24,000 bases of DNA from an uncultured Candidatus Saccharibacteria bacterium (GCA_964362925.1 CAYIGA010000002.1:4951-28950); one strand, 5' to 3'. Positions 20-14,909 are shown, counted from the stretch's first letter. Translations and numbers: made by a program. Notes: generated by a model not told the origin, from the sequence alone.

Positions 20-949
20 ATGAAAATTCTAAATTCTAAATTCAAAATTCTAAATTCTCGATCGGGGTTCACACTAATCGAGTTATTGGTCGTTATCACC
101 ATCATCGGGATTTTGGTGACGTTAGTAACGGTGGCCGTTGTCCCGATCCAGCGTAAAAGCCGCGACGCGAAGCGCAAGGCCGAAATCAACAGTTTATTGT
201 CAGGAATTAATTTGTTTAAGGCCGATTTTAAGATTTATCCCAATTCGACATTTTATTTAGGAAGCTACGGCGGTTCGGCCTTCGATACCGACAATCCGCG
301 GAACCCCAACTCCAACTACGCCGTCGCGACCGATATTGCTAACAACTGCAACAACGCTACTGTTGGCGCGACCAGTACATTTTTGAACCTGAACGGCCAA
401 ACGATCGACGCTCCCGGTAAACCAACAATCATCGAGATGGATACAAAGCCCTTACTGATGAGTCCCGGTTTCGTTTCGGTCAACAATTTCCTCATCTGCT
501 TGCGTTATATGGATCGCTTGCTGGCCGATCCCAAACCACTGACATCGGCTGACGCTGATAAGTATCAGTACAGGGTTTCGTACGACTACGGCGATGTGAT
601 CGTGACCTCACGGCTCGAGAACGATACCACCGATACCGACGCCAGCTATATGTTCAACGACACTCTGGCCGCCGCCGGCGGAGCACCGAAGCGCTACTAT
701 CGCGGCAGCGGCGTGGTCGTACGGCATCTGGACGACAGTAGTGATGTAGCCGGTTTCTTCTCTAACCTAAGTGGTACAAATGTTGATGGCAAATATCTCT
801 ACCAGTGCAAGACTGATAGTCTCAACGTCGCCATCGCCCGGGACAATCGCGTCATCAATGAACCGATTGTCAGCGATCAAGGGGTTTACGCCGCCAACCC
901 AACTTGTCAAAATCAACCGGGAGGACTTGATGTTATTCCAGCGTACTAA
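20..949 (+). CDS. Type IV pilin-like protein with prepilin-type N-terminal cleavage/methylation motif (309 aa; candidate major subunit)
   Basis: ATG at 20 is preceded by GAGGGG (12-17). N-terminus MKILNSKFKILNSRSG|FTLIELLVVITIIGILVTLV has a basic leader, G-1, F+1, E+5 and a ~20-residue hydrophobic helix. It is followed by RKSRDAKRKAEINSL...YPNS, typical of the pilin helix/head junction. Several Cys residues lie in the C-terminal half. Confidence 0.85.
   Translation: MKILNSKFKILNSRSGFTLIELLVVITIIGILVTLVTVAVVPIQRKSRDAKRKAEINSLLSGINLFKADFKIYPNSTFYLGSYGGSAFDTDNPRNPNSNYAVATDIANNCNNATVGATSTFLNLNGQTIDAPGKPTIIEMDTKPLLMSPGFVSVNNFLICLRYMDRLLADPKPLTSADADKYQYRVSYDYGDVIVTSRLENDTTDTDASYMFNDTLAAAGGAPKRYYRGSGVVVRHLDDSSDVAGFFSNLSGTNVDGKYLYQCKTDSLNVAIARDNRVINEPIVSDQGVYAANPTCQNQPGGLDVIPAY
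24..58 (+). repeat. Heptanucleotide tandem repeat (AAATTCT)x5, third unit AAATTCA, inside codons 2-13 of the pilin gene
   Basis: Direct reading gives aaattct aaattct aaattca aaattct aaattct at 24-58. The unit length of 7 is not a multiple of 3. Confidence 0.9.
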
Positions 950-2216
950 CAATCGGAGCTACTCGTTAGTCGAACTACTAGTAGTGATCGGCGTTGTCAC
1001 GACCATTGGCATTACTAGCATCCCCAATCTTTTCAACCGCAACGATCGGCTCTTGTTGGACTCTAGCGCCAATCAACTTCGTCAGGTCATGATCGAAGCG
1101 ACCACCCGCGCCCAAGCGCCTGATAAAAACGACTCGTCTGGTTCCCCGCAGGTTTTCCAAGTCTCATTTGGCAAATTTACTAAGGACGCCACCACGACTG
1201 GTGTCGCTGTGGGCGATGCGACGACCAACACCATTGCTCTTGAGCGCGGACTCGTCCAATGCGATACTGGCGATCTTCAAGGTGGCTTTACAACCTTGCG
1301 GAGTTTCACCCTGCCCCGCGGCATTTATCTGTCGTCTTTCTACCCATCTAACCAAACCGCCAGCGACGATCGGGCGGTCATTCGCTTTGCCGTTGGCGAC
1401 AACGGTTTTAGTTGCGGCAGTTACAACAAACCAGTCTACAAATCAGGTCAGCTATTTCTAGGCGATTGGTTGGGTGTAGATAAGGCCAATAGCCTGACCG
1501 TGGCTCGTTATTTAGTCGTCGAGCTTGCCAGTCAAAAAGTCGGCGACAAACGCTTTGTGACGCTTGATCGCGTCACTCATCAAGTCGCCGTGACCCGGTC
1601 TAATCCCCAAAGCTATTTCACGCCCGTGGTCGATAAGCTTGCTCCGAAGTGGAACGATGTCGATCTCAACAACTTCACGATGTCAGTGGCCTGCGGCTCG
1701 CCAGAGTCAAGTATCATCATCAATTTTCCCCGAGCCAAGGATCGGGTTAATGACCTGGATAAAGTCGACGCAAACCTCTTTGTCGCTTACAATATTAACT
1801 GGAAAGTCGGCGGGGTAGACCAGCCGTTGGCGATTAATTATTTCTATGATTTAGCGCTCTCGACGATTCGATTTCAATTTATAACCGATTTGTTTACCGT
1901 CGCCAACCAGCCAAAAAAGTTGGTCGTTACCGTCGCCGCGGTTGACGGATTGGGGAAAATACAGCCCGCCTACGACGCCGCTGCCCTAGACCCGGCCAAT
2001 CTTCTCAATCAACGTCAAAAGGCCTTCGTGGCAACTTGCGGCTCGGTTATCTCCGATCCAGACCCCGATCCAGACCCGCCGGACAAGCCAATCGATCCGC
2101 CCGGCGATACGGAGGCCTGTAATCCAATATCGAACATTAAACCTAATTTAACTAGAAGAATTACCCAGGTCTTAATCGGTCGCTCGGTGGCGGCTCGGCC
2201 TTCTTGCCTACCTTAA
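930..2216 (+). CDS. Minor pilin-like protein with non-canonical prepilin N-terminus (428 aa)
   Basis: ATG at 930 has GGGAGGA (919-925) 4 nt upstream and overlaps the upstream gene by 20 nt. N-terminus MLFQRTNNRS|YSLVELLVVIGVVTTIGITSIPNL gives S-1, Y+1, E+5 and a hydrophobic helix. The GVT-track start at 771 (GTG) adds 53 residues that overlap the previous gene. The C-terminus has a DPDPDPDPPD tract. Confidence 0.7.
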   Translation: MLFQRTNNRSYSLVELLVVIGVVTTIGITSIPNLFNRNDRLLLDSSANQLRQVMIEATTRAQAPDKNDSSGSPQVFQVSFGKFTKDATTTGVAVGDATTNTIALERGLVQCDTGDLQGGFTTLRSFTLPRGIYLSSFYPSNQTASDDRAVIRFAVGDNGFSCGSYNKPVYKSGQLFLGDWLGVDKANSLTVARYLVVELASQKVGDKRFVTLDRVTHQVAVTRSNPQSYFTPVVDKLAPKWNDVDLNNFTMSVACGSPESSIIINFPRAKDRVNDLDKVDANLFVAYNINWKVGGVDQPLAINYFYDLALSTIRFQFITDLFTVANQPKKLVVTVAAVDGLGKIQPAYDAAALDPANLLNQRQKAFVATCGSVISDPDPDPDPPDKPIDPPGDTEACNPISNIKPNLTRRITQVLIGRSVAARPSCLP

Positions 2217-2227
2217 GAAGAGTCATC

Positions 2228-2752
2228 ATGACTAAATATTACCATTGGATAAAGAAAAGTTGTCTCTTAAACTGGCAATGTCTTTTTCGGGTTAAGTCTC
2301 GACCGGGATTTTCTCTCATTGAAGTCCTTTTCGCGATTACATTTTTGATTTTGGTCGGGACGGCGATGACTTCGCTTAATTATGCCGCTGCTCGCCTAAC
2401 CGAGACAACCGAATTGAAACAGATGGCGCTGGGTTTAAACGAGCAGTCGCTCTCTTTTGTCGCCCTAAAGAAACGGGCCTTGGGTGGCGCTTTTGCGACT
2501 ACCTACCAAGGATGTATCACCCCAGTCGGCGCAGTCACCGCAGTCATCTGCTATGTCATCTGCCCGACCGACATCAATCAGGATTGTCTTTTGAAATTAA
2601 CTAGGGAGGCGGTAAAAGTCGGGACGAGCAAATTGCAATTTGTGCCGTCGGCCATCATTCGGCCAACAGGAAGCAGTTACCTCGTTAACGCCACCACATC
2701 TTGGGGCAGCGGCATCCAAAGACAGTTAACAACAGCGAGAATAATCGAATGA
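2228..2752 (+). CDS. Minor pilin/pseudopilin-like protein (174 aa)
   Basis: RVKSRPG|FSLIEVLFAITFLILVGTAM matches the prepilin motif with G-1, F+1 and E+5. ATG 2228 is preferred over TTG 2204. The leader is unusually long at 28 aa, so the start is uncertain. Confidence 0.65.
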   Translation: MTKYYHWIKKSCLLNWQCLFRVKSRPGFSLIEVLFAITFLILVGTAMTSLNYAAARLTETTELKQMALGLNEQSLSFVALKKRALGGAFATTYQGCITPVGAVTAVICYVICPTDINQDCLLKLTREAVKVGTSKLQFVPSAIIRPTGSSYLVNATTSWGSGIQRQLTTARIIE

Positions 2753-3999
2753 CGGTGAAGTCAAATCACCACCTCCACCTGGCAGGTGGAGGTGGTTCAG
2801 CGCCAAGGGGCTTTACCTTGATTGAGCTCGTCATCAGCGTCGCCCTGTTTATTATCGCCATCAGTATCGCTCTATTTACTGTCGTCGGCACCAACGGGCT
2901 AATTCAAAAAGCCGATGCCCGAAGCGCTATTAGTGAAAGCACTCGCGGTGTTGGCGAGGCCGTTCGACGGGCAGTCGATAACGCTTCGGTTGGCGCTGTC
3001 AATATTCTCTCCGACCAGGGCAGTACCGTCGCCGTTCAGATCAAAGCATTTTCCGATTTGCAATCGGGTAACACCTGTACCGTCATCGGCCGATCGACCG
3101 CCAGTACCGATCCGGGCGGGGAGGAGAAATATACTCTCGCCAAGGGCGGAACGGTGATCGCGCTCCTCGTTTATAACATCGATTCGGCTGGGCTCTGCCC
3201 CAGTCTAAGCACCGATCCGATTTACCAAAATCGCTTAACGAACGCTCAAGCCGTTGTTAAAGATATCCAGTTCTCTCTCCAAAATATCGTTTGTACCCCG
3301 ATTACGGCCAGTTGTGTCGTCAAGCAGTTACTCCGTTATTCCCTGACGCTAGAGCTGCTCCAAAAGGGCAGTGGCGGGATCAGCGAAGCTCGTTCTCCAA
3401 CGCTAACTATTCAAGAAGGGCTGCCAATTGGCTTGGTTAACGAGGCGACGATCGTTTTGAAAATCGAGACGTCGACACTTTTCGGTGGAACAAAAGATCA
3501 GGCTTACAACGACATCGTCACTGCTAGCGGCGGCATCCCCAACTATACCTGGTCAATTAGGGGCGGATCCTTGCCAGGTGGTTTGTCGCTCAACGGTTCA
3601 ACCGGCGCCATCACCGGCACGCCGACTGGATCTGGCCTAAGTAATTTCACTATTAAAGTGACCGATAGCGTCGGTGTCAGCGCCGAAAAGCCGCTGTCAA
3701 TTATAATTGTCGCTGGCCAGAAGCTGTCAATTACAACCAGTTCTTTACCCTCCGCCTCGGTCGGCTTCTCTTACTCAACTACTCTAGCGGCTAACGGTGG
3801 CACAACACCTTATACTTGGTCGTTGGCCGTTGGTTCTTTGCCGTCTGGTCTGTCACTTAACCCCACCACTGGTCTAATCAGCGGTACCCCACTCTCAGCA
3901 GGAACTCACGACTTTACTGTCCGAGTGACTGACGCGGCGGCGCCTAACGACGCCGCTACTAAACCGCTTACGATCAGAGTTGATTTTGGGCCACTATGA
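2749..3999 (+). CDS. Pilin-like protein with two C-terminal Ig-like (He_PIG-type) repeats (416 aa)
   Basis: ATG 2749 overlaps the upstream stop as ATGA. The motif SAPRG|FTLIELVISVALFIIAISIAL is present. The C-terminus carries two ~80-aa repeats: GGIPNYTWSIRGGSLPGGLSLNGSTGAITGTPTGSGLSNFTIKVTD and GGTTPYTWSLAVGSLPSGLSLNPTTGLISGTPLSAGTHDFTVRVTD. This is the Y-x-W...LP-x-GL-x-L....G-x-I-x-GTP pattern of putative Ig domains. Confidence 0.8.
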   Translation: MTVKSNHHLHLAGGGGSAPRGFTLIELVISVALFIIAISIALFTVVGTNGLIQKADARSAISESTRGVGEAVRRAVDNASVGAVNILSDQGSTVAVQIKAFSDLQSGNTCTVIGRSTASTDPGGEEKYTLAKGGTVIALLVYNIDSAGLCPSLSTDPIYQNRLTNAQAVVKDIQFSLQNIVCTPITASCVVKQLLRYSLTLELLQKGSGGISEARSPTLTIQEGLPIGLVNEATIVLKIETSTLFGGTKDQAYNDIVTASGGIPNYTWSIRGGSLPGGLSLNGSTGAITGTPTGSGLSNFTIKVTDSVGVSAEKPLSIIIVAGQKLSITTSSLPSASVGFSYSTTLAANGGTTPYTWSLAVGSLPSGLSLNPTTGLISGTPLSAGTHDFTVRVTDAAAPNDAATKPLTIRVDFGPL

Positions 4000-6900
4000 A
4001 AAACGAACTGGCTCAAAAATCGGCTTCGGCGTTGCTACTGACAGTGATGATAATCGCCATTCTGACGACAACGACCTTGGCTTCGATCGCCGTCCGCTTC
4101 GACCAATTAGCATCAACTGACAAAATTGCCAACTCGGCCGTGGCTAAATCGGCCGCTGATTCGGCTCTCGTCAAAGTCAAAGAAAAACTGGCCGCCCAAA
4201 CACCGATAACGCCGAAGGTCTTTAACCTTGACGACAACACCGAATCCGATCTCTCGCCAACCACTCCGTTTCGGCCTAACCCGCGCAAAATTGTCTCCAC
4301 CTACGCCAAGGTTCCTTCTTCGCTACCGCGCTGCAGTGGCGTCATCGTCTTGGTGCCGTGGACCAACGACGGTAAATATCTATTGAGCCAGAGTAACGAA
4401 TCCAACCCGGCCTTGATCTTTCACTTGGCTAATATCGTCAACGACACGCCGCTTGGGATTATCCCCGGTAACGGCGATCTAGGCGGTAACGGCGACGATA
4501 ATCCCGAAAAACAAAAAACCATCTCCCAGCTGACCAATATGGGCCATTTCTATAACCCCTTCGCGCCGGTTGGCGCCAAGCAGAAAGACTTGAACTACTG
4601 GATCGTTAAACTCGGCGGGCCCCAGGATCAGTTTTTAACCCGAAAGGCCGCCGATGGCGCTAGTTCTTTTTACAAAAATGTCGACTTTGTCTACTTGCCG
4701 TACTTGCCCCGCTGGCAGGATTCGGGGCTGTTCACCACCGCCTCGGGCTCGAAAGTTGATCGAATCTCGGCGACTGATTTACGGCTGAAATTTGAGTCGA
4801 TTATTAAAGACAATAATTTTAAAGTTTGGATCGACGCCTCGATAACTGATTCTGATCTTTATCGATACGGCTTTGGCGATCTCTTTGTCGACTCGACTGA
4901 TTATCGCCTGAAGTGGCTTCAGCCCTCGCTCTGGAACGACACGCCAGAGGCCGATAATTTCTCGACACCGTACATCACCGAAAATGCCGAACCCTCCCAG
5001 ACCTTGAAGTGGAGTAAGCAAGACCAGCCCCTAATGACTGATAAGGAAGGCGGTTGGAAGGTGGCGATAGTCAAGGGCGCCCAATCGTTTTCATTTGTCA
5101 AGCTGGCCGATAACAACCAAACGTTTACTGCCGGCGCCACCATCACTGGTTTAGTCTACGGCTCGTTGGAGGGATTACGCTTAAATCAGTCGATCACCTT
5201 GTTACTGCTCAATAAGGATCAGCAACCGCTGAATCTCCAATCGCGCCAACGAGACCCAGGGCGATTATACCGAGTTGAACTGACTAAAATTGGCTCGGAA
5301 ACCATCTCGAACAACGTCAAGTCGATCAGCCTTGATTTCCAGTTGAGTAGCGTTGCCTACGATACGCCGCCAAAAGCCGACGGTATGGCCGTTACCGGGT
5401 CGGATCTTGACGTCATTGCCGTCTTGGCCCCGCCCCAGTTCTCGACGACCAAGTCGATCGATTCAGTCAAAATTGAATCGCCTGGTGGCAACGGGACGGA
5501 AATTACTTTCTCCCCTGGCTCTAAATGCCTAACCCCCTGTCCAGCCGTCGGCGATTTGGTTAACCTTACTAAAGCCACTAAAACGCCCGTTTGGGGCAAA
5601 GTGACCGATGTTGATTACTCTGATGGGACCGAGCTGGTCAGTTTTAGCGTTGACAAACTCCGCCTAAGCCCGCTACCAACCCGAGAGATGGCTTATACCT
5701 CTTTTGATGATGATGGCAAGACGAAAATCGCTTACTACGGCGGTAGCATCACCACCAACGACTACGACGGCGGTTACGCCACCGAATCGGATCAGCTCTG
5801 GATTTACGACCCGGAGGAGGCCGATCCTTCAAAGTCTTGGGAATTCAAGGCCTCGGACGATCCTGCTGGTCCCGGTCGTCGAGCCGGCGCCTCAATGGTT
5901 TACGATTCGGAAAATAATCGTTTAGTCATGATCGGCGGCTACTATCACCAGTCGATCGACGCTTCCGGTCAGGGGGACTGTGAGGAATTTCAAGCCCTTT
6001 GTCTCAATACCAATTGGCCCGGTCTACGAATTGCCAAGCGAGTGACAAACGACGTTTACGTCTTTGACTTAAAGAACGCCAAATGGAAGAAAATTGATTA
6101 CACCTTTGATGCTGACAAAAAAATTCAACAGGACGGATCCTATCTGGTCCGACTAACTTCAAGTCTGGCCGACCGCTCGGGTCTGGAACGGTGGGAGATG
6201 ATTGCTAAAAATCCGATCAATGTCCCTCAAACCTTATATGTTGACGGTAATCCTTCGACAATTACTCTTTCTCCTAGCGCCGCCGGCTTGGCAAAAGGCG
6301 ATGAAATTTATCTTTACGGTAGCAAATTGGACAACAGCAAATTTTACGCTTGGGGCAAGATTGACGAGCTTAATTACCCAGCCGATAGCGTTACCGTTTC
6401 GACCTACGGCTATAAAGGTGATCAAGTCCAAGTGTCAGTCAAGATGAATTCTCTGGCCATTCAAGTTGTCAAGCGACAAATTACCACTACTACCTGTACT
6501 GGTGTGGTCTCCGCTGTGGTCTCCGGCTCGCTTTACTCCTGCCTACTAGCCGACACGACCGGATACGCCGTTGGCGATTCGGTCGTTTTGGAGCAATACG
6601 ATCTTAATAATAACTTAAGCAACACCCTGTCCGGTTTTATTAGCTTCATTAACCCCGCCAATAGTCAGGCTTACTTCATCGCTGACGAGCGAGTTACGCC
6701 CGCTGGTTTTAAAGATTATTCCGTTCAAAGTGCGGGAATAGTCGATAACGACTCGGTCATCGCTTTCCCTTCGGCTCGCTACGGCGCTACCTTTGCCCTT
6801 CAGCCAACAACGCCAACGGAAGCCGTTTATTGGCAGGGGACGGCCAGAAACATTAACTCCAATCACCGCTTTACTGATTTGTGGAAGGTTGAGTTTGTCA

Positions 6901-9065
6901 AAGGACAAGACGAGAAAAGCGCCGTTTGGTCGTTCCAACCAACCGACAATAGTATCGATCCCGACTTAAATGATAAATACAATTTTCAGGTTATTCAGCC
7001 CAGCTACTCTTATCAGATTCGCACGACCAAATCAGCTGGCAATAAGAAGGTTGTAAAAGATAAGTCCGACCTTGATCATCGAACTCAAAAGAACACGACA
7101 ATTTGGGACGACGAGAAGCGTTGGCTATTGGAGATCGACCCGAATGACGCTGGCAAAGTTGTCGTTGGCGCCTGGGCAACCTTGGAGCGGCGCTTGGACG
7201 CTGACGGTACTCGAGAAACTTTCCACGGCATCGTCGAGGATATCTACTCCGCTAATAACCGCTGCGGTGTCTTCGTCTATGCTGAAAATATACTCTGTCT
7301 TCGCCATAATCCAACCTATCCCGGAGATTCCGGCCTAGCCGATGATTCCAAGAACGTTAAAGTGACGATGACGCCGTCGTTTCGGACTGATATTGCTAGC
7401 GGCGGCGTCTTTAAGGGCGCGACTGATTCTGTCACGCTCAAGAACGTGCCGAGCGCCAAGCTTGGCAGCGTTCCCGGTGTTGGGGCGATGGTGATGATCT
7501 GGAAAGACGACGGCAACTGGCCAACAAACGCCTACACCTTTATTGTTAGCGGACGAGCCTACACTCCCAACAATAAGACTTTCAAGTTTTTATTTGACAA
7601 GCTGACCGCTTCACCTCATCCGATCGGTTACAGCACCAGCCAGATTGCTCGGGCTGGTAGTACTGATCGCTTAGTGACAATTACCGATCACCAGATGAAT
7701 TATTACGATGATACTAACGGCCCGGAATGGATCAAAAACACCTCTTCTGGGGCTTGGAAAATCCGCTTGGCGACAAAAAATCCCGGTCTCCTCTATCGAC
7801 CGGCGCCCCGTCGAGGTGGAATGATGGCCAGTATTTATATTGACGAGGCCGGATCTAAAACCAGTAAGCTATTTGTGGTCGGCGGGACGTTTGGTCAATA
7901 CGGCTCGTTATGGAAAGAAGAAAATGCCGGTCTCGATAAAGGCGCGACGCTCAAATGGCTGCCCCAATACGTCTCGCCTGACTCAACTGAAGATATCCCT
8001 AATCTATTCGGCGGCTCTTTAGTTGTTTATAAATCAGGCCGTAATATTAAGGCGGTTTATTTCGGCGGTAAACAAAAAACCGATCTTTCGAGCGCTGATT
8101 ACGGTCGCTCAATCGGCGCCAAGATGCTCGGCCGACCAGACAACGGGACAATGATTGACGGTAGTTATTATATTATTGACTCCGATGTCGCCGATCCAAC
8201 TGCTCGGGCCCTAACCAACACCATTGAGCAGAACGACGCCAACTGGCCAACTGGTGTTGATAAATCACTAAAATTTAAGGGCGGTGATCGGAGCACTAAG
8301 TCGGTCTGCGCTTATCTTGGTCAGGTCAATTCCTCCTCCTGCTCGTCAAAATCTCTCCTGTCGCAGTTGGGCGACCTCGGTCGCCTTGATGATTCGGCTC
8401 CGAATGACCCGTACAACGGCTGGACCTGGGGCAAATCGGCTATTTTGTCGGAGCTGGGCGATGCCTTCAAAAAACAAAATGTCGGTGGCACAGTTAAAGC
8501 CAGCTTAATAATGTCCACCCCGACCCTATCCGGTAGCGGCGTTAACGGCCGCTGGGAGCAGGACGGCTACCGCCCGTACTGCAAGGATACTGGCGCTGGA
8601 CCCTGTGGCAACTGGGTCTCTCAAGTCTACGGTCGGCTTGGAACTGACTTTGCTTCCAATAAAACCGCCGCCCTGGTCGCCTATAGCTCGATTAATAACG
8701 CCGAGCATAAAGGTGGGGCTATTTTGGCAACGACCGTTGGCGTCGGCCTGGCCATTGCCAACAATCGGGGCGGTACAACTGGAACCAATGGCGGATGGTA
8801 CAGCTACTGCGCCGCTAGCGAGATTGAAAAAGACAACGGCGAGCCGGTTCTGAAAAATAAACTCTATCAATGCCAATCGACCGCCAGTCGCTATATGTCG
8901 ACCGTGCCAGATGCCGAAGACTTGTTATTTATGCTTAACGCCACTCAAGCCCTCTCGGCCGTTAACACCTACAAAGTCGTTGGCTATTACGGCGGAGTCA
9001 AGCGGGGCTATCTGGTTACCTCAACCTCCGGCACCTTGCCGAAAATCTACGAAATCGTGCCCTAA
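3996..9065 (+). CDS. Giant pilus-associated protein (1689 aa) with PilX-like N-terminal hydrophobic anchor and Kelch-like beta-propeller blades; candidate tip adhesin
   Basis: ATG 3996 overlaps the upstream stop (ATGA) and opens an uninterrupted 5070-nt ORF. N-terminus MKNELAQKSASALLLTVMIIAILTTTTLASIAV resembles the PilX N-terminal segment and lacks E5. Kelch-like signatures occur at aa ~565-705 (IAYYGGS, LWIYDPE, RAGASMVYDSENNRLVMIGGYY, DVYVFDLKNAKWKKI). More occur at aa ~1270-1360 (RRGGMMASIYID..KLFVVGGTFG, GGSLVVYKSGRNIKAVYFGGK). Confidence 0.75.
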   Translation: MKNELAQKSASALLLTVMIIAILTTTTLASIAVRFDQLASTDKIANSAVAKSAADSALVKVKEKLAAQTPITPKVFNLDDNTESDLSPTTPFRPNPRKIVSTYAKVPSSLPRCSGVIVLVPWTNDGKYLLSQSNESNPALIFHLANIVNDTPLGIIPGNGDLGGNGDDNPEKQKTISQLTNMGHFYNPFAPVGAKQKDLNYWIVKLGGPQDQFLTRKAADGASSFYKNVDFVYLPYLPRWQDSGLFTTASGSKVDRISATDLRLKFESIIKDNNFKVWIDASITDSDLYRYGFGDLFVDSTDYRLKWLQPSLWNDTPEADNFSTPYITENAEPSQTLKWSKQDQPLMTDKEGGWKVAIVKGAQSFSFVKLADNNQTFTAGATITGLVYGSLEGLRLNQSITLLLLNKDQQPLNLQSRQRDPGRLYRVELTKIGSETISNNVKSISLDFQLSSVAYDTPPKADGMAVTGSDLDVIAVLAPPQFSTTKSIDSVKIESPGGNGTEITFSPGSKCLTPCPAVGDLVNLTKATKTPVWGKVTDVDYSDGTELVSFSVDKLRLSPLPTREMAYTSFDDDGKTKIAYYGGSITTNDYDGGYATESDQLWIYDPEEADPSKSWEFKASDDPAGPGRRAGASMVYDSENNRLVMIGGYYHQSIDASGQGDCEEFQALCLNTNWPGLRIAKRVTNDVYVFDLKNAKWKKIDYTFDADKKIQQDGSYLVRLTSSLADRSGLERWEMIAKNPINVPQTLYVDGNPSTITLSPSAAGLAKGDEIYLYGSKLDNSKFYAWGKIDELNYPADSVTVSTYGYKGDQVQVSVKMNSLAIQVVKRQITTTTCTGVVSAVVSGSLYSCLLADTTGYAVGDSVVLEQYDLNNNLSNTLSGFISFINPANSQAYFIADERVTPAGFKDYSVQSAGIVDNDSVIAFPSARYGATFALQPTTPTEAVYWQGTARNINSNHRFTDLWKVEFVKGQDEKSAVWSFQPTDNSIDPDLNDKYNFQVIQPSYSYQIRTTKSAGNKKVVKDKSDLDHRTQKNTTIWDDEKRWLLEIDPNDAGKVVVGAWATLERRLDADGTRETFHGIVEDIYSANNRCGVFVYAENILCLRHNPTYPGDSGLADDSKNVKVTMTPSFRTDIASGGVFKGATDSVTLKNVPSAKLGSVPGVGAMVMIWKDDGNWPTNAYTFIVSGRAYTPNNKTFKFLFDKLTASPHPIGYSTSQIARAGSTDRLVTITDHQMNYYDDTNGPEWIKNTSSGAWKIRLATKNPGLLYRPAPRRGGMMASIYIDEAGSKTSKLFVVGGTFGQYGSLWKEENAGLDKGATLKWLPQYVSPDSTEDIPNLFGGSLVVYKSGRNIKAVYFGGKQKTDLSSADYGRSIGAKMLGRPDNGTMIDGSYYIIDSDVADPTARALTNTIEQNDANWPTGVDKSLKFKGGDRSTKSVCAYLGQVNSSSCSSKSLLSQLGDLGRLDDSAPNDPYNGWTWGKSAILSELGDAFKKQNVGGTVKASLIMSTPTLSGSGVNGRWEQDGYRPYCKDTGAGPCGNWVSQVYGRLGTDFASNKTAALVAYSSINNAEHKGGAILATTVGVGLAIANNRGGTTGTNGGWYSYCAASEIEKDNGEPVLKNKLYQCQSTASRYMSTVPDAEDLLFMLNATQALSAVNTYKVVGYYGGVKRGYLVTSTSGTLPKIYEIVP

Positions 9066-10647: not shown

Positions 10648-11182
10648 TGACCTCTCCTTTTTGACGCTCGGCCGGACGGCTCCTCGACAAGTTTAGAGTC
10701 ACCCCAAGCCCAGTCGAGGGGCGGCGTTTTGGCTCCTCTAGTCCAGCTCGCCAGGTGGAGAGAAGGTGTCGCTCGATTGTTTCGGTGTGTTTTAATTCGC
10801 TCTCCAGTTTTTTGATCGATAAGGCGTCGGCATGAAAAAAGACTGACACCAGCGACAGCTCCCGATGTTGATTAATTGGAAATGCCAGTCGCTTGACGCC
10901 TAAATCCTCGGCCTTTTCTACTTTTGAACCAACGGCCAAGACCAAGGCGGACAGTTCAGCCAGGGCACTGTCGGCGTCTTTAGCTAGGGCCGAGAGCAAG
11001 TAGATTTGGGCTTTAGAGTCTCCGGCCGTAGTTTCGGCGACCACATCAGCGGCCGTAGATTGTTCTTCAACTTCTTTGATATTGTCCAGTGTTGACTCTT
11101 CAACCCCGGCCGTGGTTTCGACACTTCCTATCTCTTTAACTACCATTGTCAAAATTTTATCAGGAAAGGGTCGATTAATCAA
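10640..11182 (-). CDS. rpsF: 30S ribosomal protein S6-like (bS6) with N-terminal acidic extension and C-terminal basic tail
   Basis: The core is YLLSALAKDADSALAELSALVLAVGSKVEKAEDLGVKRLAFPINQHRELSLVSVFFHADALSIKKLESELKHTETIERHLL. This fits the S6 pattern G.R.LAYPI...G.Y..F......I..LE..L.....V.R.L, and the gene sits directly upstream of ssb. Start is ambiguous: TTG 11182 with GAGGGGGG upstream, or ATG 11146 without an SD. Confidence 0.7.
   Translation of the reverse strand: MINRPFPDKILTMVVKEIGSVETTAGVEESTLDNIKEVEEQSTAADVVAETTAGDSKAQIYLLSALAKDADSALAELSALVLAVGSKVEKAEDLGVKRLAFPINQHRELSLVSVFFHADALSIKKLESELKHTETIERHLLSTWRAGLEEPKRRPSTGLGVTLNLSRSRPAERQKGEVNV
10701..10723. repeat. Copy A of dispersed motif ACCCCRARCCCAGTCGWRGGGC
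   Basis: caccccaagcccagtcgaggggc lies inside the rpsF 3' tail. It matches copy B (19834-19856) at 20 of 22 positions. Confidence 0.7.
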
Positions 11183-12152
11183 CCCCCCTCTTGTCTGGTG
11201 GTTGACCCCGAACGGAGTTCACCCCGATTCCAGATGAAGGGTCGAGAGACGGTTGACTATGAAAACGGCGATGGACGTCTCGGAGCGACCGATCGGTAAC
11301 GTGAGTGTAAATTTGGGTGGTCGTGATTGAGGAGTGGCCGAGCATTGCTTGGACAGAGCGCAAATCAGCCCCGTTTCGCAATAAATCAGTGGCGAAGCTG
11401 TGGCGGATTTGATGGGGGGTGACATTTTGAGTGACGCCAGCTCTTATTGCCGCCTGGCCAATTAGCCGCTGAACTGTCCGATCACTAAGATGGTTCTTTT
11501 TTGAGTCAAGGAGGCTGTTTTGATGATGCCGGATGAAAAGATATGGGCTTGTATCGGCTCGAGTGTCAATATAGCCGCCAAGCTCATCGAGGGCTTCTTC
11601 GGACAGAAATCCCGGCCGGACTTTTCCGCCTTTGCCCCGGACACTGAATTCCCCCGTTGCTAGGTTGACTTGATTGCGCTTTAAGTTCGTTAGCTCGCTG
11701 ACGCGGAGGCCGCTCGAAAAGAGGACGGCGATTATCGCCCGGTTCCGTCGGCCGATTCTCGAGTCGTCGCCGGCAACTTCGATTAATAGCAAAACCTCCG
11801 CCCGGTCCAAAAAATTGATCTGCCGAGAAGGGACTTTACCTAAAGTGATTTTTTCTGGCGGTAAGACTCTTAGATCGCGGCCAATCAAGTACTTAAGTAA
11901 GGCTCTGACGGCAATCAAATAGTAGTTGACGGTGGCTCGATTCCGTTTTACTCCCGCCGAATCCAGAAGGGCTAATTGGTAGTCGACCGCATCTTCGCCG
12001 CTAAGTTGATCTATTTTTGTTACTTTATTGGCTTCGGCCCAACTCTGAAAACTGGCGAGATAGTGTCGATAATTTTTAACGGTTGAGGCCGAGGCGCCGC
12101 GGGAGGTCTCCAGATATCGGAGGTAATCCTTAACGGCTCGACTAATGGTCAT
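11175..12152 (-). CDS. Tyrosine site-specific recombinase, XerC/XerD-like
   Basis: The N-terminal SAM-like domain reads YLRYLETSRGASASTVKNYRHYL. Catalytic signatures are GLRVSEL, HQIRHSFATDLLRNGADLRSVQAMLGHSSITTTQIYTHV (H-x-x-R ... Y). The stop overlaps the putative rpsF start by 8 nt. Confidence 0.85.
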   Translation of the reverse strand: MTISRAVKDYLRYLETSRGASASTVKNYRHYLASFQSWAEANKVTKIDQLSGEDAVDYQLALLDSAGVKRNRATVNYYLIAVRALLKYLIGRDLRVLPPEKITLGKVPSRQINFLDRAEVLLLIEVAGDDSRIGRRNRAIIAVLFSSGLRVSELTNLKRNQVNLATGEFSVRGKGGKVRPGFLSEEALDELGGYIDTRADTSPYLFIRHHQNSLLDSKKNHLSDRTVQRLIGQAAIRAGVTQNVTPHQIRHSFATDLLRNGADLRSVQAMLGHSSITTTQIYTHVTDRSLRDVHRRFHSQPSLDPSSGIGVNSVRGQPPDKRGVD

Positions 12153-13436: not shown

Positions 13437-14909
13437 TTAGATTTCCAGATCTTGGACTGTCGGTAAAGGCGAAGGCAATTGGCTACTAGTTGCCGGTGTC
13501 TGGCTTTGAACCGGAGCGCTGTTATTGACTTGGGGCGGCTGATTAGTCGGATCGTCACCAGGTTCGAGAATCGTTGTTGGTGGCTGATCAAACGAAATGG
13601 TCTCGGCCGGTTTGGGCGTAACAACGGTCCCAGACGGCAAATTTTGGCTAAACGGCGCCGGGACAGTGGAAATTGGCGGTGGAGGCAAGGAAGCGACCGG
13701 CATCTGGACACTAGCTTCTGGCTTTAGAGCGGGAGGAGTTAGCGGAGATTGATTTTGGCTCGTCGTTAGACTACTCGCTTCGACTGACTGTTTACTGACG
13801 TTGGCCGGAACCTCTTGGAAATTGCTTGGTATTCTTGGGAGTGACGACAGTGGCGGCGGCGGTGGCGGTGGGACTAGCTTTGGCAGAGGGAGGATCGGCT
13901 CTGAAGGTAACGATGGGTTTACTCCAGGCGAAGTCGAGGGGGCCTGATTTACGCCCAACTGACTCGAGGGGCTAAGTGATGCCCCTGACCGGTAGCTACC
14001 GGCTGATGGTTTGGAGATCAGTTCGGTCGGCAGTTGATTTTGGCTAGTGGCGGGACTGCTCGGAACAAGTGGCTCGGCCACTTGAGGTGGCCTCGGCGGG
14101 ACAATCGCCGGAGACTCATATCCCTTCTCGGCCACTTGAGGTGGCCTCGGCGGGACAATCGCCGGAGACTCATATCCCTTCTCGGCCACTTGAGGTGGCC
14201 TCGGCGGGATGATCGGCCAAGGGTTTATTGAGGGTTTGTTGGGGGTCGACGGCGATGAAGTTAACTGGTTGGATTGCCCGTTTGGCGACTGTGAGGTCTT
14301 TGGCTGGTTGCCGCTGGCGGTTGCCCCTAGAACATCGGCCGAAACCGAAGGAAGTTGATTTTGGCTCGTTACTGGACTGCTTTGAGTTTGTTCTTTTGGT
14401 TGTTCTCCCGTCCAGGTTGGATTGATGGTTGGCTTGACATTGTAGCTGCTGGGGGGCGAAGAGGCAGTTGGCGCGGGGCTATCGGCTTTCGGTCCACGGG
14501 CGTCCTCTAGAATCGGAGAAGTTGGAGATTGCCGGCTACCGGAGAACTCGGTTGAAGGTGGCGCTATTTTTGGAACTTCAAAATTGGGCTTTGGGGACAG
14601 AGTAGGCGCCTGGGAACTAGGAGCTGGGGACTGGTTGTGGGGGGTCAATCTTATGTCCTTTCTCTCTAGTTCCGAGTTCCGAGTCCCTGGTCCCTCCTTA
14701 CCTACCAATATCTCTTCTAAATATTTTATACCAATCAAAGCGATGGCCGGTTTTCCGCCCTTGGTCAAAACATAAAGGCCATCGGCTGTATTTTCAACAT
14801 CGGCAACCAGACGACTAAAGTTGTCGCGAGCGTCAGTCAATGGAACGATACGATCGATCGGTACGCTAATCAAATTTCCCTCCTCCAATTCAGAGTAACC
14901 GAGCCCCAT
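13437..14909 (-). CDS. Phd/YefM-like N-terminal domain fused to a ~400-aa Pro/Ser/Gln/Thr-rich low-complexity region
   Basis: The N-terminus VPIDRIVPLTDARDNFSRLVADVENTADGLYVLTKGGKPAIALIGIKYLEEIL fits the antitoxin Phd_YefM pattern (seaRnnls.l...V......v.it..gkp.avl.s...ye.l). The remainder is low complexity, with a PPPPPPP run, 3x ESPAIVPPRPPQVAEKGY and 3x TSQNQ(L/S)P. Confidence 0.65.
   Translation of the reverse strand: MGLGYSELEEGNLISVPIDRIVPLTDARDNFSRLVADVENTADGLYVLTKGGKPAIALIGIKYLEEILVGKEGPGTRNSELERKDIRLTPHNQSPAPSSQAPTLSPKPNFEVPKIAPPSTEFSGSRQSPTSPILEDARGPKADSPAPTASSPPSSYNVKPTINPTWTGEQPKEQTQSSPVTSQNQLPSVSADVLGATASGNQPKTSQSPNGQSNQLTSSPSTPNKPSINPWPIIPPRPPQVAEKGYESPAIVPPRPPQVAEKGYESPAIVPPRPPQVAEPLVPSSPATSQNQLPTELISKPSAGSYRSGASLSPSSQLGVNQAPSTSPGVNPSLPSEPILPLPKLVPPPPPPPLSSLPRIPSNFQEVPANVSKQSVEASSLTTSQNQSPLTPPALKPEASVQMPVASLPPPPISTVPAPFSQNLPSGTVVTPKPAETISFDQPPTTILEPGDDPTNQPPQVNNSAPVQSQTPATSSQLPSPLPTVQDLEI
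14073..14209. repeat. 54-bp tandem repeat, ~2.5 copies, in frame (18-aa unit)
   Basis: ctcggccacttgaggtggcctcggcgggacaatcgccggagactcatatcccttc starts at 14073, 14127 and 14181. The first two copies are identical as read. Confidence 0.9.

What the first reader, a model, noticed from the sequence alone, without database searches (positions are those of the whole stretch)
20..9065. Self-contained five-gene pilin module: four prepilin-type subunits plus a 1689-aa terminal protein, without assembly genes in the window
Seen: five co-directional ORFs are joined by a 20-nt overlap (930/949), an 11-nt gap and two ATGA overlaps (2749, 3996), implying translational coupling. Four proteins carry class III signal peptides. 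The fifth has a PilX-like hydrophobic N-terminus without E5. Established: in type IV pili and T2SS, a set of minor pilins plus a large non-pilin protein (PilY1/PilC, ComZ type) forms the tip complex that primes assembly and mediates adhesion or DNA binding. Inference: this is a tip or priming module whose adhesin is directly helix-anchored and far larger than PilY1. If the organism is an episymbiotic Patescibacterium, this is a prime candidate host-attachment or DNA-uptake organelle with an uncharacterised tip protein. The first subunit is also large for a major pilin at 309 aa.
Basis: partly seen in the sequence, partly recalled or inferred. Interest (0 to 1): 0.7.

Follow-up and report, generated by a model that had tools for sequence, protein, structure and literature searches.

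The report
Berkelbacteria pilus operon with giant tip pilin
This is a real, conserved type IV pilus gene set from an ultra-small groundwater bacterium (Patescibacteria, Berkelbacteria lineage); its last gene encodes a 183-kDa pilin-anchored beta-propeller protein that probably sits at the pilus tip as an adhesin, which is an unusually large variant of a design already described in related Saccharibacteria.

Summary
There are five co-directional, tightly coupled ORFs: 20-949, 930-2216, 2228-2752, 2749-3999 and 3996-9065. Four have class III signal peptides with E5. The fifth (1689 aa) has a [G/A]|SALLLTVM N-terminus without E5.

The module is not self-contained. In every related locus with upstream DNA, a full-length PilC/GspF platform gene lies directly before ORF1, just outside the window. 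The unit is therefore a six-gene F-G-H-I-J-K-type array.

The giant ORF is intact (1507-1757 aa) in 36 further protein clusters, down to 32% identity. All named sources are Berkelbacteria or Patescibacteria MAGs.

Its predicted layout is:
- a pilin-length N-terminal helix;
- an alpha/beta domain and beta-sandwiches with no PDB match;
- a discontinuous Kelch-type propeller with large inserted domains.

It is not a detectable member of the PilX_N, GspK or PilY1 families.

The most likely function is a tip-located adhesin of a type IV filament. This parallels Saccharibacteria PilX2, a propeller-bearing minor pilin with a non-canonical signal that is needed for host binding.

No PilB, PilT or PilD gene was located in the same genome.

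Verdict: a new variant of a known kind, of moderate interest.

The parts
20..949 (+). ORF1, 309-aa prepilin (mature about 294 aa, 31.8 kDa). Candidate major subunit (GspG/PilA-like); class III site G15|F16-T-L-I-E.
   Evidence: N_methyl 32.6 bits. TIGR01710 GspG N-terminus E=9.5e-11, below cutoff. The orthologue profile hits major pilins in PDB over the first 60-105 residues: Geopilin, M. xanthus PilA 8tj2, Thermus PilA4 6xxd, GspG 5wda. Four conserved Cys, including a C-terminal pair C248/C281 in mature numbering. It is the first gene after pilC in all loci.
930..2216 (+). ORF2, 428-aa prepilin-like minor pilin (position of GspH/ComGD). Site S|YSLVE; orthologues have A or G at -1.
   Evidence: N_methyl sub-threshold at 13.7 bits. 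E5 and Y+1 are invariant in 10 orthologues. PDB profile hits cover only the N-terminal helix of pilins. Overlaps ORF1 by 20 nt.
2228..2752 (+). ORF3, 174-aa prepilin with a 27-aa leader and a 147-aa mature protein (15.8 kDa). Small minor pilin in the position of GspI/PilV/ComGE.
   Evidence: G|FSLIE. Weak NCBIfam hits to PRK10332 (E=6e-4) and PilV (0.031). Orthologue alignment. No PDB sequence match.
2749..3999 (+). ORF4, 416-aa modular minor pilin (position of GspJ/PilW/ComGF). Pilin core of about 210 aa plus two C-terminal He_PIG Ig-like domains, roughly nt 3450-3990.
   Evidence: N_methyl 23.6 bits and He_PIG 98.7 bits in 2 stretches. Weak GspJ N-terminal hit, E=7e-4. The Ig part resembles SraP adhesin modules 4m03, E=1.2e-10. 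Orthologues carry 0-3 He_PIG domains.
3996..9065 (+). ORF5, 1689-aa giant pilin-anchored protein (mature about 183 kDa). K-type (GspK/PilX/ComGG-like) N-terminus without E5, then a multi-domain beta-rich ectodomain.
   Evidence: Full-length homologues of 1507-1757 aa down to 32% identity. Exhaustive HMMER finds no relatives of aa 1-550 outside the family. Conserved Cys: C113, C511/C515 and C834/C849 are invariant; C662/C669, C1438, C1605 and C1626 are at least 90% conserved.
3996..4193 (+). ORF5 leader (aa 1-10) and predicted pilin-type alpha1 helix (aa 10-44 and 48-66). Putative cleavage after A10; G in 22 of 34 homologues.
   Evidence: Alignment of 34 N-termini. AF2 secondary structure H10-44 and H48-66, with low pLDDT as expected for a protruding helix.
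4320..5735 (+). ORF5 aa 110-580: conserved alpha/beta domain (110-340) and beta-sandwich domains (350-580) with no solved structural relative.
   Evidence: AF2 pLDDT about 80-90. Foldseek against PDB gives nothing better than E=3.9e-3, and only Fab Ig matches at TM<0.2. This is the most conserved third of the protein.
5700..9062 (+). ORF5 aa 570-1689: discontinuous Kelch-type beta-propeller with large inserted beta domains. Conserved hydrophobic-GG blade motifs at aa 579-583, 644-648, 1293-1297, 1354-1358 and 1664-1667. Most variable region is aa 800-1300. The extreme C-terminus is highly conserved.
   Evidence: Pfam Kelch hits at aa 595-701. AF2 confident for aa 560-1360, pTM 0.74. Foldseek hits Kelch propellers LZTR1, FBXO42, TYW4, RAG2 and KLHDC2 at prob 1.0, E 2e-6 to 1e-4, with alignments longer than the targets. 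PDB profile hits are Kelch only. Motif positions and conservation.

Best explanation
The five ORFs are the distal five genes of a conserved six-gene type IV filament operon of a Berkelbacteria-lineage Patescibacterium. The order is pilC-like platform (just upstream of the window), a major-type pilin (ORF1), three E5-bearing minor pilins (ORF2-4) and a giant K-type pilin-like protein without E5 (ORF5).

Proposed mechanism (inferred):
- All five proteins insert in the membrane through their N-terminal helix and are trimmed by a prepilin peptidase encoded elsewhere.
- ORF2-5 pre-assemble on the PilC platform as a priming complex with ORF5 on top. As in GspK/PilX/ComGG, ORF5 needs no E5 because no subunit sits above it.
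- ORF1 then polymerises beneath, driven by a PilB-type ATPase encoded elsewhere.
- This displays the 183-kDa ORF5 ectodomain (novel N-terminal domains plus a split Kelch propeller) and the Ig-like domains of ORF4 at the filament tip, where they bind a host-cell or surface ligand.

Shown: gene structure, motifs, synteny, conservation and domain and fold content. Inferred: processing, tip location, priming, adhesion and the identity of ORF1 as the major subunit.
For: Gene coupling and motifs.

The T2SSF gene lies directly upstream in every locus that retains upstream DNA: L001, L002 (with L003 and L006, the same genome), L004 (with L005), L007, L008, L010-L015 and the more distant L019. The order T2SSF-O1-O2-O3-O4-O5 is invariant. 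In most genomes the junctions are within a few nucleotides or overlap.

The platform protein is a full-length GspF/PilC homologue (GspF 281 bits, PilC 236 bits).

The gene order F-G-H-I-J-K equals gspF-K and comGB-GG (established knowledge).

The ORF5 N-terminus [G/A]|S-[AIV]-L-L-L is invariantly E5-less, and its predicted helix of about 55 residues matches pilin alpha1 length.

The ORF1 profile matches major pilins.

ORF4 carries adhesin-type Ig modules that vary in number. ORF5 has a Kelch propeller.

In ORF5 the base (aa 1-350) is conserved while aa 800-1300 are variable. This fits a conserved docking end and an evolving binding end. Conserved Cys pairs fit an extracytoplasmic location.

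Precedent: TM7x PilX2 is a minor pilin with a non-canonical signal and a 7-bladed propeller. It is required for efficient host binding but not for filament extrusion, and it sits in a five-pilin locus separate from its machinery (PMC12206443).

Type IV pilus machinery is widespread in CPR (PMC6744442). A MAG labelled Berkelbacteria has a canonical pilO-pilB-pilT-pilC-pilin-pilD cluster.
Against: No PilB/PilT Walker A motif and no PilD lie within +-10 kb in any of the 15 loci checked (L001-L015). None could be placed in a genome that carries this operon.

ORF5 is not significantly matched by PilX_N, T2SSK or PilY1 models. Its N-terminal domains have no PDB fold match.

ORF2 and ORF3 are below the N_methyl gathering score.

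The H/I/J/K assignments rest on order, size and weak N-terminal hits only.

No complex prediction was made, and no expression or imaging data exist. The ligand is unknown.

At about 294 mature residues, ORF1 is large for a major pilin. The true major subunit could be encoded elsewhere.
Confidence: 0.65

Rival explanations
1. Competence (Com-type) pilus. The operon is the Patescibacterial counterpart of comGB-GC-GD-GE-GF-GG, and the filament captures extracellular DNA for uptake rather than binding hosts.
For: The gene order is identical to comGB-GG, that is, platform, major pilin, three E5 minors and an E5-less last subunit (ComG order from established knowledge). Weak ComGC/GD/GE/GF N-terminal hits exist. 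CPR are thought to depend on DNA uptake, and pili are linked to competence there (PMC6744442). aa 1001-1600 of ORF5 are mildly basic, with pI about 8.7.
Against: The ComGB model scores lowest of the platform models (126 bits, against 281 for GspF and 236 for PilC). No comGA-type ATPase is adjacent. ComGG-type proteins are small, from my own knowledge. A 183-kDa Kelch-propeller ectodomain and adhesin-type Ig domains are not needed for DNA binding. Overall pI values are acidic. No known DNA-binding domain was detected.
Confidence: 0.15
2. ORF5 is not a pilus component. It is a signal-anchored cell-surface protein, an S-layer-like or envelope adhesin, that is merely co-transcribed with pilin genes. 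The pilins alone form the filament.
For: There is no significant PilX_N, GspK or PilY1 match. The -1 residue in this window is Ala, not Gly. The N-terminal helix has low pLDDT. The size is extreme for something that must pass through the cell envelope on a filament tip.
Against: The motif [G/A]|S-x-L-L-L-T-V-M lies at a fixed distance behind a short polar leader and is nearly invariant over 34 homologues that otherwise fall to 32% identity. ORF5 is always the last gene of the pilin block, with ATGA-type or few-nt junctions. The first 350 aa are its most conserved part. In TM7x, PilX2 has the same features and its deletion phenocopies loss of the pilus in host binding.
Confidence: 0.13
3. T2SS-like pseudopilus. 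The F-G-H-I-J-K block drives protein secretion across the envelope rather than forming an external pilus.
For: The best platform and ORF1 hits are to GspF and GspG models, and the order equals gspF-K.
Against: All these hits are far below equivalog cut-offs. No gspC, D, E, L or M is nearby. CPR lack an outer membrane and PilQ/secretin (PMC6744442). A 183-kDa cap and Ig-decorated subunits are hard to reconcile with a short piston.
Confidence: 0.05

Closest known systems
Saccharibacteria (N. lyticus TM7x) T4P-2 pilin locus three with PilX2 (Grossman et al., ISME J 2025, PMC12206443)
   Same: Both are Patescibacteria. Both have a five-pilin locus with one major-type pilin plus minor pilins. In both, the largest subunit has a pilin-type N-terminal helix but no canonical PilD signal and carries a C-terminal beta-propeller. 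PilX2 is proposed, and partly shown, to be the host-binding tip adhesin.
   Different: PilX2 has an RCC1-type 7-bladed propeller. ORF5 has a Kelch-type propeller interrupted by large insertions, plus about 550 aa of novel N-terminal domains. No sequence homology was detectable: exhaustive HMMER found no Saccharibacterial relative of aa 1-550. Here a dedicated pilC is fused to the pilin block, whereas in TM7x pilC2 lies in another locus with pilB2.
T2SS gspF-G-H-I-J-K and Gram-positive comGB-GC-GD-GE-GF-GG blocks; GspK/PilX/ComGG class of E5-less cap subunits
   Same: The same order: platform, major subunit, three E5-bearing minors and a last, largest subunit lacking E5. ORF1 and PilC give their best, sub-threshold hits to GspG and GspF.
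   Different: No ATPase gene is adjacent. No T2SSK, PilX_N or ComGG family match exists for ORF5. ORF5 is several times larger than these cap subunits (sizes from my own knowledge). The organism is a monoderm-like CPR without a secretin.
PilY1 / PilC (Neisseria) tip-associated adhesins of T4aP
   Same: A large protein of more than 1000 aa with a beta-propeller, encoded at the end of a minor-pilin operon. It is thought to sit on the minor-pilin tip complex and mediate adhesion.
   Different: PilY1 is a non-pilin with a Sec signal that docks through its C-terminal propeller. ORF5 is itself helix-anchored. No PilY1 Pfam hit was found, and no PilY1 structure appeared among the top 50 Foldseek matches, which were eukaryotic-type Kelch propellers.
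Modular minor pilins (S. sanguinis PilB vWA and PilC lectin; ETEC CofB; V. cholerae TcpB)
   Same: A pilin module is fused to bulky functional modules displayed at the tip. ORF4 (pilin plus Ig domains) and ORF5 fit this concept (PMC8179133, PMC9934059 and PMC5207764 appeared in the search results, where their titles and abstracts were seen).
   Different: Those proteins are far smaller than ORF5 and most keep a canonical class III signal (from my own knowledge). ORF5 is 1689 aa, lacks E5 and has an unrelated domain set.

Membership tests
Type IV pilin / class III signal peptide (PF07963 N_methyl, TIGR02532) | HMM match above the curated threshold | tested here: met
   ORF1 scores 32.6 bits and ORF4 23.6 bits against a gathering score of 21.2. 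TIGR02532 gives 31.3 and 19.6 bits against 16.3. ORF2 (13.7) and ORF3 (14.6) are below threshold, and ORF5 has no hit.
Type IV pilin / class III signal peptide | Short polar leader, small residue at -1, F/Y/M at +1, Glu at +5, then about 20 hydrophobic residues | tested here: met
   ORF1-4 have G|FTLIE, S|YSLVE, G|FSLIE and G|FTLIE. E5 is kept in all orthologues matched, and -1 is G, A or S. ORF5 lacks E5.
Type IV pilin / class III signal peptide | Cleavage and N-methylation by a PilD-type A24 peptidase | not testable with these tools
   No A24 peptidase gene lies within +-10 kb. One is present in another MAG labelled Berkelbacteria (L022), but not shown to be the same genome.
GspK / PilX / ComGG class of cap minor pilins | Pilin-like N-terminus with a small -1 residue but no E5; last gene of the minor-pilin block | tested here: met
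   34 of 34 homologues have [G/A]|S-[AIV]-L-L-L. ORF5 is always last in the block.
GspK / PilX / ComGG class of cap minor pilins | Sequence membership (PF14341 PilX_N, T2SSK models, ComGG models) | tested here: not met
   No hit at E<=0.1 on the full protein. PilX_N reaches E=2.7 and 8.5 bits in one orthologue only.
GspK / PilX / ComGG class of cap minor pilins | GspK- or PilX-like globular fold | tested here: inconclusive
PilY1 / Neisseria PilC adhesins | PilY1-type C-terminal propeller domain (Pfam Neisseria_PilC), Sec signal, non-pilin | tested here: not met
   No such Pfam hit. The propeller matches are Kelch type. The N-terminus is pilin-like.
PilC/GspF platform protein (PF00482 T2SSF), for the upstream gene | Full-length T2SSF architecture of about 400 aa | tested here: met
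   PF00482 on record for the gene. The GspF profile is covered at positions 1-398 of 401 in L002 and 24-398 in L001, at 281-285 bits. PilC scores 236-257 bits. All are below equivalog cut-offs, so the subfamily is unassigned.
Complete type IV filament system | Extension ATPase (T2SSE) and prepilin peptidase in the same genome | not tested
   None was found in any +-10 kb flank. The PilB search returned proteins labelled Berkelbacteria, but none on contigs whose lengths match genomes carrying this operon. Whole genomes could not be fetched.
Kelch beta-propeller | Repeated four-stranded blades with the hydrophobic-GG motif; structural match to Kelch propellers | tested here: met
   Kelch_3 scores 24.0 bits against a gathering score of 22, with other Kelch models sub-threshold. 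Foldseek gives prob 1.0 to LZTR1, FBXO42, KLHDC2 and RAG2. Five conserved GG blade motifs are spread over aa 579-1667. The discontinuous topology is inferred, not verified on a full-length model.

The most novel reading that the evidence does not exclude
The operon encodes a second, dedicated type IV filament of Berkelbacteria-lineage cells. It has its own platform paralogue but borrows the motor and peptidase of a primary pilus. Its lineage-restricted 183-kDa pilin-anchored split Kelch propeller, together with the copy-number-variable Ig domains of ORF4, is the host-recognition determinant of these still uncultured episymbionts. The variable region at aa 800-1300 would then track host specificity, and the ectodomain could be used as bait to identify the unknown hosts.
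Probability: 0.3. Interest if true: 0.65.

Novelty: new variant of a known kind. Interest (0 to 1): 0.45.

Why it matters
Berkelbacteria have no cultured representative and no known host. Type IV pili are the best-supported host-contact organelles of Patescibacteria, and in Saccharibacteria a propeller-bearing PilX-type pilin has been tied experimentally to host binding.

This locus provides, for a different lineage, a compact and strictly conserved candidate host-contact set: platform, filament subunit, three minor pilins and a giant tip protein. All members of the giant protein family are currently labelled hypothetical. Its N-terminal 550 residues have no detectable sequence relative among 1.84 billion representative proteins and no PDB fold match.

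The locus gives a concrete target for host-identification experiments. It also extends the modular-pilin concept to the largest pilin-anchored protein I am aware of. It does not reveal a new kind of machine.

Tried and rejected
- The exact look-up of P0001, the 100% identical NCBI protein on a 49,675-bp contig, failed. The listing of cluster members gave no name or accession. The window's own contig beyond L001 could therefore not be read.
- I tried to locate pilB in a genome carrying the operon. I took PilB from the closest non-orthologous pilBTC locus (L020), searched it and looked for contig-length fingerprints such as 768791, 495617, 629280, 685065 and 241868. None appeared among the best 120 hits. 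The hit labelled Berkelbacteria, P0296, lies in a canonical T4P cluster but cannot be tied to this lineage.
- The supplement search of PMC12206443 for 'Berkelbacteria' gave 0 hits.
- The 89-aa ORF called between pilC and ORF1 in L001 was rejected as a gene. pilC ends with a normal C-terminus, and the small ORF lies in the 264-nt spacer in another frame.
- An apparent 5' truncation of pilC in L001 was rejected. The missing N-terminal residues are encoded in frame behind AAGGAGG and start at ATA/CTG.
- Profile searches of ORF2, ORF3 and ORF4 against PDB sequences gave no GspH, GspI or GspJ assignment.
- No sigma-70-like promoter or convincing + strand terminator was found at the 3' end of ORF5. 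One weak promoter-like site lies 44 nt upstream of ORF1 in L001. These results were not used as evidence.
- A mobile-element origin was considered because of the tyrosine recombinase at 11175-12152. It was rejected because the whole neighbourhood (PRC-barrel gene ... efp-rpsR-ssb-rpsF-xer) is syntenic across divergent genomes.

Full report
**1. Observation**

The window carries five co-directional ORFs on the + strand: 20-949 (309 aa), 930-2216 (428 aa), 2228-2752 (174 aa), 2749-3999 (416 aa) and 3996-9065 (1689 aa).

- ATG at 930 lies behind GGGAGGA, and ORF1 ends with TAA at 947-949, giving a 20-nt overlap.
- ORF2 ends with TAA at 2214-2216 and ORF3 starts with ATG at 2228, giving an 11-nt gap.
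- ATGA overlaps sit at 2749-2752 and 3996-3999.

An independent gene caller on a public ENA contig that contains this sequence (L001, Hainich groundwater well H51, 0.1-um fraction) made the same five calls.

ORF1-4 have class III sites: G|FTLIE, S|YSLVE, G|FSLIE and G|FTLIE. Pfam N_methyl passes its gathering score for ORF1 and ORF4 and is sub-threshold for ORF2 and ORF3. NCBIfam gives only N-terminal, sub-cutoff hits to GspG/H, ComGC-GF, PilV and GspJ models. A motif regex over all six-frame ORFs of the window hits only these four, each at its N-terminus.

ORF5 begins MKNELAQKSA|SALLLTVMIIAIL. In 34 aligned homologues the pattern is a short polar leader, G (22 sequences) or A (12) at -1, then S-[A/I/V]-L-L-L-T-V-M. 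Position +5 is always Leu.

**2. The module is cut by the window edge**

In L001 a T2SSF gene ends 264 nt before ORF1. It is a full-length GspF/PilC-family platform protein (GspF 281 bits, PilC 236, ComGB 126, all below equivalog cut-offs).

Its apparent lack of a start codon is explained by an in-frame ATA/CTG behind AAGGAGG, at the position where orthologues start. The 89-aa ORF called in the spacer is spurious.

The T2SSF gene precedes the pilin genes in every related locus that retains upstream DNA. These are L002 (with L003 and L006, the same genome), L004 (with L005; the complete 768,650-bp genome CP066697.1), L007, L008, L010-L015 and the more distant L019. The order T2SSF-O1-O2-O3-O4-O5 is invariant, and in most genomes the gaps are only a few nucleotides or the genes overlap.

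PilC is 62-85% identical among these loci, while the pilins are 30-71% identical. PilC orthologues form a tight group at 46% identity or more, about 64 clusters. The next hits are 39% or less and belong to ordinary pilB-pilT-pilC clusters.

The wider neighbourhood is also syntenic. It has a divergent PRC-barrel gene upstream and efp-rpsR-ssb-rpsF-xer downstream. This is therefore a chromosomal, vertically inherited locus and not a mobile island.

No PilB/PilT Walker A motif and no A24 peptidase occur within +-10 kb in any of the 15 loci checked.

**3. The giant protein is real and lineage-restricted**

The word-indexed search found 36 further clusters at 90% identity. Of these, 33 are full length (1507-1757 aa) and reach down to 32% identity. 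All that carry a name are 'hypothetical protein' from Candidatus Berkelbacteria, Patescibacteria or unclassified 'bacterium' MAGs. Two genome records are titled Saccharibacteria or Saccharimonadales.

An exhaustive HMMER pass of aa 1-1200 over 1.84 billion representatives found only about 24 clusters of the same family. Everything else matched only the Kelch repeats at aa 560-660. Frameshift or assembly artefacts are excluded.

**4. Anatomy of ORF5**

The AF2 models were built with 34 sequences.

- aa 1-580 (mean pLDDT 74):
  - a helix at 10-44 plus 48-66, about 55 residues in all, which is the length of a pilin alpha1; pLDDT is low, as expected for a protruding helix;
  - an alpha/beta domain at 110-340;
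  - beta-sandwiches at 350-580 with pLDDT 85-95.
  - Foldseek against PDB found nothing meaningful for this piece.
- aa 560-1689 (pLDDT 75, pTM 0.74):
  - the first 800 residues are confident and all-beta;
  - the last 330 residues have low confidence.
  - Foldseek returns Kelch propellers (LZTR1, FBXO42, TYW4, RAG2, KLHDC2; prob 1.0). The alignments are longer than the targets, which indicates inserted domains. No PilY1 structure is in the top 50.

Profile search against PDB sequences gives Kelch hits only.

Conserved hydrophobic-GG blade motifs lie at aa 579-583, 644-648, 1293-1297, 1354-1358 and 1664-1667. I therefore infer a discontinuous propeller with two large insertions, closed by the highly conserved C-terminus.

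Small 'GDxVxL' modules of about 50 aa recur at about 519, 768 and 860 (hhalign prob 70-91%). Weaker copies occur at 1058 and 1163.

Conservation is highest in aa 1-350 and the last 40 residues, and lowest in aa 800-1300. Fifteen Cys residues, mostly in close pairs and many conserved, suggest an extracytoplasmic, disulfide-bonded protein.

**5. The other subunits**

- **ORF1.** The profile of ORF1 orthologues matches major pilins in PDB over the first 60-105 residues: Geopilin, M. xanthus PilA, Thermus PilA4 and GspG. It has a conserved C-terminal Cys pair. It always follows pilC directly. Its orthologue is only 205 aa in the distant L019. I take it as the candidate major subunit; this is an inference.
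- **ORF3.** A small pilin, 147 aa when mature.
- **ORF4.** A pilin core of about 210 aa followed by He_PIG Ig domains. Their number ranges from 0 to 3 among orthologues, and they resemble the cadherin-like modules of the SraP adhesin.
- **H/I/J/K labels.** The PDB profile searches and the Pfam and NCBIfam scans run here did not place ORF2-5 in the GspH, I, J or K families. The H-I-J-K labels are positional analogies only.

**6. Mechanism**

The order platform, major pilin, three E5-bearing minors and an E5-less last subunit is that of gspF-K and comGB-GG (established knowledge). In those systems the E5-less subunit caps a pre-assembled minor-pilin complex that primes polymerisation and ends up at the tip.

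The closest experimental precedent is in Saccharibacteria. TM7x has a five-pilin locus separate from its machinery. Its largest minor pilin, PilX2, lacks a canonical PilD signal and carries a 7-bladed propeller. PilX2 is needed for efficient host binding but not for filament extrusion (PMC12206443). Type IV pilus machinery is widespread and enriched in CPR, and PilQ is absent (PMC6744442).

My preferred explanation is that ORF2-5 form a priming and tip complex on the adjacent PilC, ORF1 polymerises beneath it, and the ORF5 ectodomain plus the ORF4 Ig domains act as the adhesive head. Gene structure, motifs, synteny and folds are shown. Processing, tip location and adhesion are inferred.

**7. 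Rival explanations**

- **Com-type DNA-uptake pilus.** It has the same gene order. Against it, the ComGB model scores lowest, no ATPase is adjacent, and the bulky acidic adhesin-type domains argue otherwise.
- **Signal-anchored surface protein unrelated to the filament.** Against it stand the invariant pilin-like motif, the fixed terminal position in the block and the conserved N-terminal third.
- **T2SS-like pseudopilus.** Against it, there are no other gsp genes and no outer membrane.

**8. What remains open**

- I could not show a PilB, PilT or PilD gene in a genome that carries this operon. A PilB search seeded from the nearest pilBTC locus returned proteins labelled Berkelbacteria. One of them lies in a canonical pilO-pilB-pilT-pilC-pilin-pilD cluster (L022). 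None lay on contigs whose lengths match the operon-bearing genomes.
- No multimer prediction was possible.

**9. Verdict**

The module is not self-contained. The PilX, GspK and PilY1 labels are analogies rather than memberships. The design, a pilin-anchored propeller adhesin in Patescibacteria, already has a published precedent.

What is new is the family itself. It is unannotated, lineage-restricted and 183 kDa, with novel N-terminal domains and a split Kelch propeller. Its fixed fusion to a dedicated platform gene in F-G-H-I-J-K order is also new.

I rate it a new variant of a known kind, interest 0.45.

Noticed in passing
window 65, 957, 2306, 2809, 4023 and orthologous sites in L002-L015: The residue at -1 of the prepilin cleavage site is not fixed. 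G, A and S alternate between orthologues of each of ORF1-4, for example ORF2 has S (window), A (L002) and G (L004). ORF5 alternates G and A. This suggests a prepilin peptidase tolerant of Ala or Ser at -1, as in archaeal class III signals.
   Followed up: partly
window 3450-3990; L002 8205-9878, L013 9330-9989, L015 6373-7071: ORF4 orthologues share a pilin core of about 210 aa but carry 0, 1, 2 or 3 C-terminal He_PIG Ig-like domains. This is domain copy-number variation in a minor pilin.
   Followed up: yes
L001 3318-3411 (about 1.4 kb upstream of window position 1): The pilC gene of this organism has no ATG, GTG or TTG where its orthologues start. The homologous N-terminal residues are in frame behind AAGGAGG and begin at ATA-CTG, so a non-canonical start codon is likely.
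   Followed up: partly
L002 9829-10008 (also L003, L006): A 59-aa ORF just upstream of the ORF5 orthologue encodes a second leader plus helix start (MKKMYEQELSKTG|SALLLTVMI) and then diverges. It looks like the remnant of an alternative or replaced 5' end of the giant gene. No DNA repeat of 20 nt or more was detected.
   Followed up: partly
L011 3546-4562: The ORF1 orthologue has two class III motifs (AFTLIELL and GFTLIELL) 63 nt apart, which looks like a tandem duplication of the N-terminal segment.
   Followed up: no
window 5550-7500 (ORF5 aa about 519, 768, 860; weaker at 1058, 1163): Repeated modules of about 50 aa with a G-D-x-V-x-L ... G-x-I signature, probably small beta-barrels inserted in the propeller. 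Pairwise hhalign probabilities are 70-91% for the first three.
   Followed up: partly
L001 2761-3270 (-); L002 3461-3964; L004 4340-4849; L019 9342-9842: A gene of about 168 aa with a faint PRC-barrel hit is always divergently oriented directly upstream of pilC, even in the distant L019 locus. No NCBIfam match. Its function and any link to the pilus are unknown.
   Followed up: no
window 13437-14909 (-): A 490-aa ORF with only a weak, sub-threshold N-terminal Phd/YefM antitoxin hit (23.9 bits). It is conserved at the same length and position in L002 with no Pfam family. It is an unknown conserved protein between the PAP2 genes and an M16 peptidase.
   Followed up: no
window 11175-12152 (-): A tyrosine recombinase (Phage_integrase plus SAM-like N-terminus) sits next to rpsF-ssb-rpsR-efp. 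It keeps the same position in all related genomes, so it is most likely a housekeeping Xer-type recombinase and not a marker of a mobile element.
   Followed up: partly
L022 1-19000 (MAG labelled Berkelbacteria, ENA ERZ27299977): A canonical Patescibacterial T4P cluster (pilO, pilB of 824 aa, pilT, pilC, a 153-aa pilin, pilD and four more pilin-like genes). It is immediately preceded by a protein of more than 4017 aa with Laminin_G_3, DUF2341 and Vgb_lyase domains, another giant surface protein next to pilus genes.
   Followed up: no
L004 15150-15929 and L019 8243-9019: A TrmB-family regulator gene lies next to the operon in two lineages, downstream of the giant gene in L004 and upstream of the PRC gene in L019. 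It is absent from the window. It could be a regulator of the locus.
   Followed up: no
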